A DNA stretch of 64,000 nt from Eledone cirrhosa (lineage: Eukaryota): assembly GCA_964016885.1 (NCBI GenBank), contig OZ024743.1:57598001-57662000 (forward strand), written 5' to 3'. Position numbers and translations under genes: made by a program. Positions 25,186 through 25,542 of the stretch are shown one piece after another. The notes under the pieces were generated by a model. That model saw only the letters and a program-made list of their open reading frames with translations. It ran no database searches and was not told where the DNA came from. Numbering within the stretch: position 1 is the stretch's first letter; each line of letters opens with the position of its first letter.

Positions 25186-25542
25186 TTAGAAAGTGAGGTT
25201 TTTTTTACAAAATGAAAAATAACCGAGGTGTCCTACACGAGTGAAAGCATAAAGAAAAAAAGATGAAATCGAAAATGCAACTGGAGTCTTATTTTCTTTT
25301 AAAATATATATATTTATTTGGTTCCTTTACCGGTTTCGCAGTTCTTCTGCTTTTCAAAAGTAGAGTTGAGATGGAGGGTCTGTGGTTTTTTTCACCAGAT
25401 GTGAGAAAAACCACAGACCCTCCATCTCAACTCTACTTTTGAAAAGTAGAAGAACTGCGAAACCGGTAAAGGAACCAAATAAATATATATATTTTAAAAG
25501 AAAATAAGACTCCAGTTGCATTTTCGATTTTATTTTTTTCTT
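25186..25542. mobile_element. Fold-back element carrying U3-A8 hammerhead in each arm
   Basis: Arms ~25250-25395/25401-25540 around CAGAT; same family at 44077-44436, 57483-57870 and 58015-58120. Confidence 0.8.
25436..25471 (+). ncRNA. Minimal hammerhead with compensatory C3U/G8A core
   Basis: CTT TTGAAAA GTAG AAGAA CTGC GAAA CCGG TA AAG; rc copies at 25325-25360, 44150-44185 and 57609-57644. Confidence 0.72.

What the first reader, a model, noticed from the sequence alone, without database searches (positions are those of the whole stretch)
25325..25471. Hammerhead family fixed for the compensatory U3-A8 catalytic core (UUGAAAA)
Seen: all seven copies (25325-, 25436+, 44150-, 44261+, 57609-, 57781+, 58059-) read TTGAAAA in place of CTGAnGA. 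In the best copies the framing is intact: stem I CTT/AAG, stem II GCAG/CTGC and GAAACCGGTA. Established: positions 3 and 8 form a tertiary Watson-Crick pair, so C3U plus G8A is a double compensatory change. Its fixation in an amplified family argues for function, and CUGANGA-based screens would not detect it.
Basis: partly seen in the sequence, partly recalled or inferred. Interest (0 to 1): 0.75.

Follow-up and report, generated by a model that had tools for sequence, protein, structure and literature searches.

The report
Penelope hammerhead with published U-A core
This is a back-to-back pair of end fragments of a very abundant Penelope-like jumping gene, each carrying a small hammerhead RNA motif predicted to cut itself; its U-A core pair is real but already published for such elements, and its uniformity across copies likely reflects shared descent rather than selection on each copy.

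Summary
Observation confirmed: all 7 window copies read UUGAAAA; 2 are fully intact, 2 slightly altered, 3 broken elsewhere. The two motifs at 25325-25471 lie on opposite strands, in an inverted pair of 5'-truncated pseudo-LTRs of a Penelope-like retrotransposon (full pLTR-ORF-pLTR copy in L067; GIY-YIG E=7.7e-7). The genome holds 11,820 exact matches. U3-A8 is not new: Cervera and De la Pena 2014 report it in about 1,300 Schistosoma motifs and list a Penelope-linked UUGAAAA core. Fixation among copies proves nothing: the free position 7 deviates as rarely as position 8 (47 versus 47). Better evidence is that related families with 44-76% endonuclease identity keep U3-A8 while position 7 and stem I change. 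Short copies mostly start about 70 nt upstream of the predicted cut, not at it. Side lead outside the window: an older lineage with one extra purine in the core, where the possible 3-8 pair reads U-A 37, U.G 25, C-G 27, C.A 1, U.U 1 of 91. The scan noted U3-A8 Penelope hammerheads before in other genomes.

The parts
25184..25395 (-). Left arm: 5'-truncated pseudo-LTR of a Penelope-like element, from about 67 nt upstream of the predicted cut to the long 3' end point (+144, includes the 64-nt optional tail)
   Evidence: 92-95% identical to both pLTRs of the full-length copy in L067
25325..25360 (-). Minimal type I hammerhead motif, intact: stem I 3 bp, core U3-A9 at 25351-25357, stem II 4 bp, palindromic stem III ACCGGU, predicted cut after A17 (25328)
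25394..25548 (+). Right arm: inverted 5'-truncated pLTR copy, from about 74 nt upstream of the predicted cut to the short 3' end point (+80, no tail)
   Evidence: 143 of 147 aligned columns identical to the left arm
25436..25471 (+). Second hammerhead motif copy, core 25439-25445, one U.G wobble in stem II, predicted cut after A17 (25468)
25049..25183 (.). (TA)n microsatellite flanking the insertion on the left (approximate limits)
25549..25674 (.). (TA)n-rich microsatellite flanking the insertion on the right (approximate limits)
44074..44440 (.). Second inverted pLTR pair of the same family; motifs at 44150-44185(-) intact and 44261-44296(+) broken at U16.1
57478..57876 (.). Older inverted pair of the same family; motifs at 57609-57644(-) and 57781-57816(+), the latter broken at G12 and stem III
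57987..58125 (-). Older solo arm; motif at 58059-58094(-), stem II broken

Best explanation
The stretch is the centre of an inverted pair of 5'-truncated pseudo-LTR fragments of a Penelope-like retrotransposon, each with a minimal type I hammerhead motif whose U3-A8 pair was likely inherited from an ancestral master element and is predicted to support weak, dimer- or protein-assisted self-cutting. Shown: motif anatomy, opposite-strand arrangement, link to a pLTR-ORF-pLTR element with a C-terminal GIY-YIG domain, two fixed 3' ends 64 nt apart, (TA)n flanks, copy counts, and retention of U3-A8 in related families. Inferred: the element RNA starts about 72 nt upstream of the cut site; the element's reverse transcriptase copies mostly uncut RNA from two start sites (+80, +144) onto a break in (TA)n DNA, which gives these fold-back stubs; the ribozyme is under selection only in the few master elements, where two RNAs (or the two pLTRs of one full-length RNA) would pair through ACCGGU and cut after GUA, about 170 nt ahead of a likely start codon. 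The window copies are passive by-products. Cutting is untested.
For: Full-length copy L067 has the same motif in direct repeat 4.5 kb apart around a decayed ORF with RT-like motifs (RVT_1 E=0.016, below cut-off) and GIY-YIG (E=7.7e-7). 149 of 162 arms end at +80 (58) or +144 (91), the optional-tail signature; 69 of 162 begin at -74 to -65. Monomer hammerhead fold is unstable (+2.4 kcal/mol) while two copies form stem II plus an intermolecular ACCGGU helix (-19.1 kcal/mol). U3-A8 is kept in three related families whose flanks fall in separate BLAST clusters and whose GIY-YIG pieces are about 44-76% identical, with N7 = A, U or C and stem I CCUU/AAGG, AU/AU or CAA/UUG. Literature: U3-A8 in Penelope min-HHRs (PMC4209133), active in vitro per PMC3088659, protein-assisted cutting and uncut RNA as the main template in a lizard element (PMC11167929).
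Against: No cleavage or RNA data. Stem I is only 3-4 bp and is not part of the predicted minimum-energy fold of monomer or dimer. No pile-up of 5' ends at the predicted cut: 1 of 162 arms starts at +1, 5 of 162 at +1 to +9 (the sample is biased towards arms that hold the motif). U3-A8 in the related families most likely stems from one ancestral switch, so it is retention, not repeated covariation. A related lineage kept amplifying with an extra base in the core, which shows that a textbook core is not required for transposition.
Confidence: 0.85

Rival explanations
1. The motif is a relic or a purely structural element: it descends from a hammerhead but no longer cuts, and is kept by descent or because it overlaps promoter or protein-binding signals of the pLTR.
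For: Positions 7 and 8 decay equally among copies; most short copies span the cut site; catalytic mutants did not affect insertion in vitro in a lizard element (PMC11167929); in the plain register a 91-copy relative has G or A at position 3.
Against: Core, stem II G-C pairs and the ACCGGU-A17 block stay fixed across families whose flanks no longer align, while N7, loop II and stem I change with pairing kept.
Confidence: 0.25
2. One reading: selection acts on the amplified copies, which are functional dimeric ribozymes of a family invisible to existing screens.
For: U3-A8 in more than 98% of 19,864 pattern matches.
Against: Free position 7 is equally uniform; 3 of 7 window copies are broken; neighbouring motifs are on opposite strands and would be buried in a long hairpin; the variant was already screened for.
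Confidence: 0.05
3. The palindrome is a MITE or foldback DNA transposon and the hammerhead likeness is incidental.
For: Long inverted repeat without coding sequence at this locus.
Against: The arms are the 3' UTR/pLTR of an RT plus GIY-YIG element; arm lengths vary at the inner end and outer ends are asymmetric.
Confidence: 0.01

Closest known systems
U3-A8 minimal hammerheads of Cercyon Penelope-like elements in Schistosoma mansoni (Cervera and De la Pena 2014, PMC4209133; parts 1-3 of 4 of the text and part 2 of supplementary file 2 read; file 1 not searchable)
   Same: Type I minimal motif in a pLTR, short stem I, palindromic stem III, U3-A8 core; supplementary row S. mansoni(4), marked as Penelope-linked, has the same UUGAAAA heptamer; motifs also reported as close pairs on opposite strands.
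   Different: Here stem II is 4 bp with no extra base after A9, stem III is ACCGGU, the cut triplet is GUA, and U3-A8 dominates this motif class (19,606 versus 17 C3-G8 with this stem III), whereas in the fluke it was about 1,300 hits beside about 2,000 canonical ones. The three mollusc rows in that table are C3-G8.
Natural U3-A8 core covariation (Perreault et al. 2011, PMC3088659; passages and section 8 read, figure not seen)
   Same: Same compensatory pair, stated to be active in vitro from earlier work.
   Different: Rare examples there; here fixed in a family of more than 10,000 copies.
C-terminal-endonuclease Penelope-like elements of Neptune/Nematis type (Craig et al. 2021, PMC8557442; passages read)
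   Same: pLTRs, inverted 5'-truncated copies, optional tail, CX2-5CxxC linker before GIY-YIG, microsatellite targets.
   Different: Tail is 64 nt rather than 30-40; Neptune versus Nematis not resolved (no reference tree).
Poseidon element of Anolis, in vitro system (PMC11167929; passages and second half of the main text read)
   Same: Two fixed end points defining a tail, AT-rich targets, hammerhead in the pLTR, uncut RNA as main template.
   Different: Canonical C3-G8 core overlapping the start codon; here the motif lies about 170 nt upstream of the likely start codon.

Membership tests
Minimal type I hammerhead of Penelope-like elements | Conserved core U4 G5 A6, A9, G12 A13 A14, A15.1-U16.1, H17 | tested here: met
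   Complete in 4 of 7 window copies for stem II flanks and core; 11,820 genome matches
Minimal type I hammerhead of Penelope-like elements | Watson-Crick pair between positions 3 and 8 | tested here: met
   U3-A8 in 7 of 7 window copies; 19,606 of 19,864 across four patterns
Minimal type I hammerhead of Penelope-like elements | Stem II starting with G10.1-C11.1, short stem I, palindromic stem III allowing dimers | tested here: met
   stem I is only 3-4 bp and marginal in folding
Minimal type I hammerhead of Penelope-like elements | Location in the pLTRs of an RT plus GIY-YIG element | tested here: met
   L067: motif at both ends, 4.5 kb apart
Minimal type I hammerhead of Penelope-like elements | Site-specific self-cleavage | not testable with these tools
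   needs an assay; genomic 5' ends show no peak at the cut
Penelope-like element with C-terminal endonuclease (Neptune/Nematis type) | C-terminal GIY-YIG domain with CX2-5CxxC linker and internal CxxC | tested here: met
   PF01541 E=7.7e-7; linker cysteines read in L068 and, with one substitution, in L067
Penelope-like element with C-terminal endonuclease (Neptune/Nematis type) | Reverse transcriptase of the Penelope clade | tested here: inconclusive
   RVT_1 E=0.016, below cut-off, in a frameshifted copy; no PDB match; RT-like motifs visible by eye; no tree built
Penelope-like element with C-terminal endonuclease (Neptune/Nematis type) | pLTR, inverted 5'-truncated copies, optional tail | tested here: met
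   3' ends at +80 and +144; 53 plus-strand arms with an inverted partner, 55 arms without, of 162
Non-LTR retrozyme | Head-to-tail tandem non-coding units each with a hammerhead | tested here: not met
   copies are inverted pairs or solo arms

The most novel reading that the evidence does not exclude
The U3-A8 Penelope clade of this genome holds a natural record of a ribozyme core evolving under selection: one lineage gained an extra purine between positions 3 and 4, a core insertion not found in my searches, and its 3-8 pair then walked U-A to U.G to C-G through successive master elements while stem I was repaired. If these versions cut, the hammerhead core tolerates a bulge in the uridine turn and Penelope hammerheads are shown to be selected for catalysis in vivo.
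Probability: 0.25. Interest if true: 0.55.

Novelty: new member of a known kind. Interest (0 to 1): 0.22.

Why it matters
The finding itself adds one more genome, with unusually high copy number, to a published variant. Its practical value is a warning: uniformity of a motif across transposon copies is not evidence of function, and the position-7 control shows it directly. If cutting were shown, the family and its insertion-bearing relative would be a natural series for asking whether Penelope hammerheads are selected for catalysis, which is still open in the papers read here.

Tried and rejected
Rfam scan of the window: 0 matches. Stepwise reversion U3-A8 to U3-G8 to C3-G8 in the plain register, suggested by four loci: rejected as an ascertainment artefact once one search showed that the lineage's usual base before UGA is G or A. 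Cut-site footprint in genomic 5' ends (lead from earlier notes): not seen, 1 of 162 at +1, weak test because loci were picked by an intact motif. RT placement: Pfam below cut-off, PDB blank; no large homologue search was run. All-versus-all BLAST of upstream regions timed out. One search used a miscounted pattern and found nothing; corrected. Lunse et al. (PMC5785218) and Przybilski and Hammann 2007 (PMC1986816) were not held, so measured rates for U3-A8 and for Penelope dimers were not seen. Paper searches with no hit: (the latter for an insertion between positions 3 and 4).

Full report
1. Observation. The window sequence shows a long palindrome centred near 25395 between two (TA)n runs. Self-BLAST finds the same repeat at 44074-44440, 57478-57876 and 57987-58125. 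All 7 of 7 named motifs read TTGAAAA. Two are complete as described, two carry small stem changes, three are broken at G12, U16.1 or G10.1. A relaxed descriptor gave 5 window hits (3 of this family, 2 canonical-core) and 0 in 30 Markov-random sequences. Rfam gave 0 matches at gathering score.

2. Host element. The window lies in a 3.0-Gb genome (earlier notes call it octopus-type, not checked). An exact 28-letter pattern with positions 7 and 8 free has 11,820 matches, control 0. In L067 the motif occurs twice in direct orientation 4.5 kb apart around a frameshifted ORF. Its last piece matches GIY-YIG (PF01541, E=7.7e-7) and is preceded by a cysteine linker of the Neptune/Nematis kind described in PMC8557442; the middle piece has RT-like motifs but only a sub-threshold RVT_1 hit (E=0.016) and no PDB hit. 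The window arms are 92-95% identical to both pLTRs of L067. Mapping 162 distinct arms from the window and 234 loci onto one pLTR (only hits of at least 50 nt, 85% identity, reaching 40 nt past the cut and away from locus edges were kept) gives 3' ends at +80 (58) and +144 (91), 13 elsewhere: the optional tail. 5' ends cluster at -74 to -65 (69 of 162); 22 run past the reference start; 14 start after the cut, scattered from +1 to +77, 1 exactly at +1. The finding has one arm with tail and one without, both starting near -70. This is the inverted, 5'-truncated structure known for Penelope-like elements.

3. Does fixation argue for function? Within the family, 80 copies differ at position 3 (41 C, 21 G, 18 A), 47 at position 8 (23 G, 14 C, 10 U) and 47 at the free position 7; hand counts from the listings. 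No C3-G8 copy occurs; about 0.08 would be expected from independent single changes. These three patterns also require the base before position 3, so their denominator is slightly under 11,820. Position 8 is thus no better preserved than a neutral neighbour: uniformity is descent from master elements. With a looser pattern fixed on the ACCGGU stem III the counts are U3-A8 19,606, C3-A8 141, U3-G8 100, C3-G8 17 (reversed-pattern controls 12, 9, 7, 0).

4. Evidence from other lineages. A pattern with N7 not A finds 2,180 further U3-A8 matches and another subfamily pattern 272 (94 of the first 100 listed are U3-A8). Flanks of 133 motifs fall into three main clusters (78, 28, 17) plus small ones. 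Cluster 1 includes the window's second family at 20403(-)/22077(+), next to a GIY-YIG fragment (E=4.7e-6) about 44% identical to that of L067; one cluster 2 locus has a GIY-YIG piece 46% and 76% identical to the other two. Across them N7 is A, U or C, loop II and stem I differ with pairing kept, while U3, A8, the rest of the core and ACCGGU-A17 are constant. That fits selection on master elements, but probably reflects one ancestral switch. Canonical C3-G8 motifs of other families are in the same window (23559+, 45732-, 43898-/43903+, 26640-/29062+), so the genome as a whole is not converted.

5. Mechanism. Folding: the monomer hammerhead structure is unfavourable (+2.4 kcal/mol); two copies form stem II and an intermolecular ACCGGU helix (-19.1); stem I is marginal. 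The two motifs of the finding are on opposite strands; a read-through RNA is one hairpin of about 150 bp (-241 kcal/mol), so they are not a working dimer. The likely model: in master elements the motif cuts weakly after GUA as a dimer or with help from the element protein, as reported for other elements (PMC4209133; PMC6765202 passages; PMC11167929); most new insertions are copied from uncut RNA back to its likely start near -72. A17 occurs in several published rows. That U3-A8 is slower than C3-G8 is recalled, not seen in a call.

6. Literature. PMC4209133 states that a Cercyon-linked variant has U3-A8 instead of C3-G8 and that a descriptor with this core retrieved about 1,300 hits; its supplementary alignment lists a Penelope-linked Schistosoma row with UUGAAAA (supplementary file 1 could not be searched). 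PMC3088659 reports natural U3-A8 covariation and prior in vitro activity. Two key papers were not held. The first part of a 2026 preprint on retrozymes added nothing on this point. Earlier scan notes reached the same verdict in other genomes.

7. Side lead. Four G8 loci first looked like a reversion. An unbiased pattern for that lineage (91 matches, control 0) showed instead one extra base, mostly G or A, before UGA. Read plainly, position 3 is a purine and the pair is broken. If the purine is a bulge, the preceding pyrimidine and position 8 read U-A 37, U.G 25, C-G 27, C.A 1, U.U 1 (hand count). A tree of 30 of the 91 loci plus 18 relatives, core columns masked, nests the lineage inside U3-A8 subfamilies and puts most C-G copies in one clade (support 0.97; other nodes weak). 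In those 30 loci position 1.2 is G in 8 of 10 C-type and 1 of 19 readable U-type copies, which either repairs stem I or pairs with the pyrimidine itself, so the register is ambiguous. It is one lineage with three or four steps, and the pattern forced the other positions, so this is suggestive only. One paper search for such an insertion found nothing; the 2011 paper's text names insertions after A6 and A13 only.

8. Verdict. Real motif, correctly read, ordinary kind: a new, very abundant member of the published U3-A8 Penelope hammerheads. The functional argument offered does not hold; a better but indirect one does. Interest 0.22.

Noticed in passing
L165-L194 (G000, 91 matches); not in the window: Older related Penelope lineage with one extra purine before UGA; the preceding pyrimidine and position 8 read U-A 37, U.G 25, C-G 27, C.A 1, U.U 1. 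Either a dead core that kept transposing or an insertion-tolerant core.
   Followed up: partly
window 20330-22180: Second U3-A8 Penelope family (core TTGATAA at 20403-20433 minus and 22077-22107 plus): inverted pLTR arms around a GIY-YIG fragment at 20854-21489 minus.
   Followed up: partly
window 23559-23586 (+) and 45732-45759 (-): Canonical C3-G8 minimal hammerhead motif with an extra base after A9, in another repeat family.
   Followed up: no
window 43850-43970; related pieces at 47857 (-) and 13714-13795: Short palindrome made of two canonical-core hammerhead-like arms with a long potential stem I.
   Followed up: no
window 26397-29305: 1.1-kb inverted repeats with fragments that look like Penelope RT and GIY-YIG, and canonical-core hammerhead-like motifs at 26640 (-) and 29062 (+); the one RT-like fragment scanned had no Pfam hit.
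   Followed up: no
family-wide: 5' ends of short copies pile up 65-74 nt upstream of the predicted cut, a likely RNA start; two loci (L051, L124) hold inverted pairs in which both arms start after the cut site.
   Followed up: partly
window 55585-56661 (-): Mariner-type transposase ORF (PF01359 E=3.3e-15).
   Followed up: no
window 1409-4453 (+) and 4882-6225 (-): Fragments that look like two non-LTR retrotransposons; the second has a weak zf-RVT hit (E=0.002).
   Followed up: no
G000 C1 348.86-348.95 Mb: Six C3-A8 copies spaced about 9.6 kb apart, likely a tandem segmental duplication, which inflates mismatch counts slightly.
   Followed up: no
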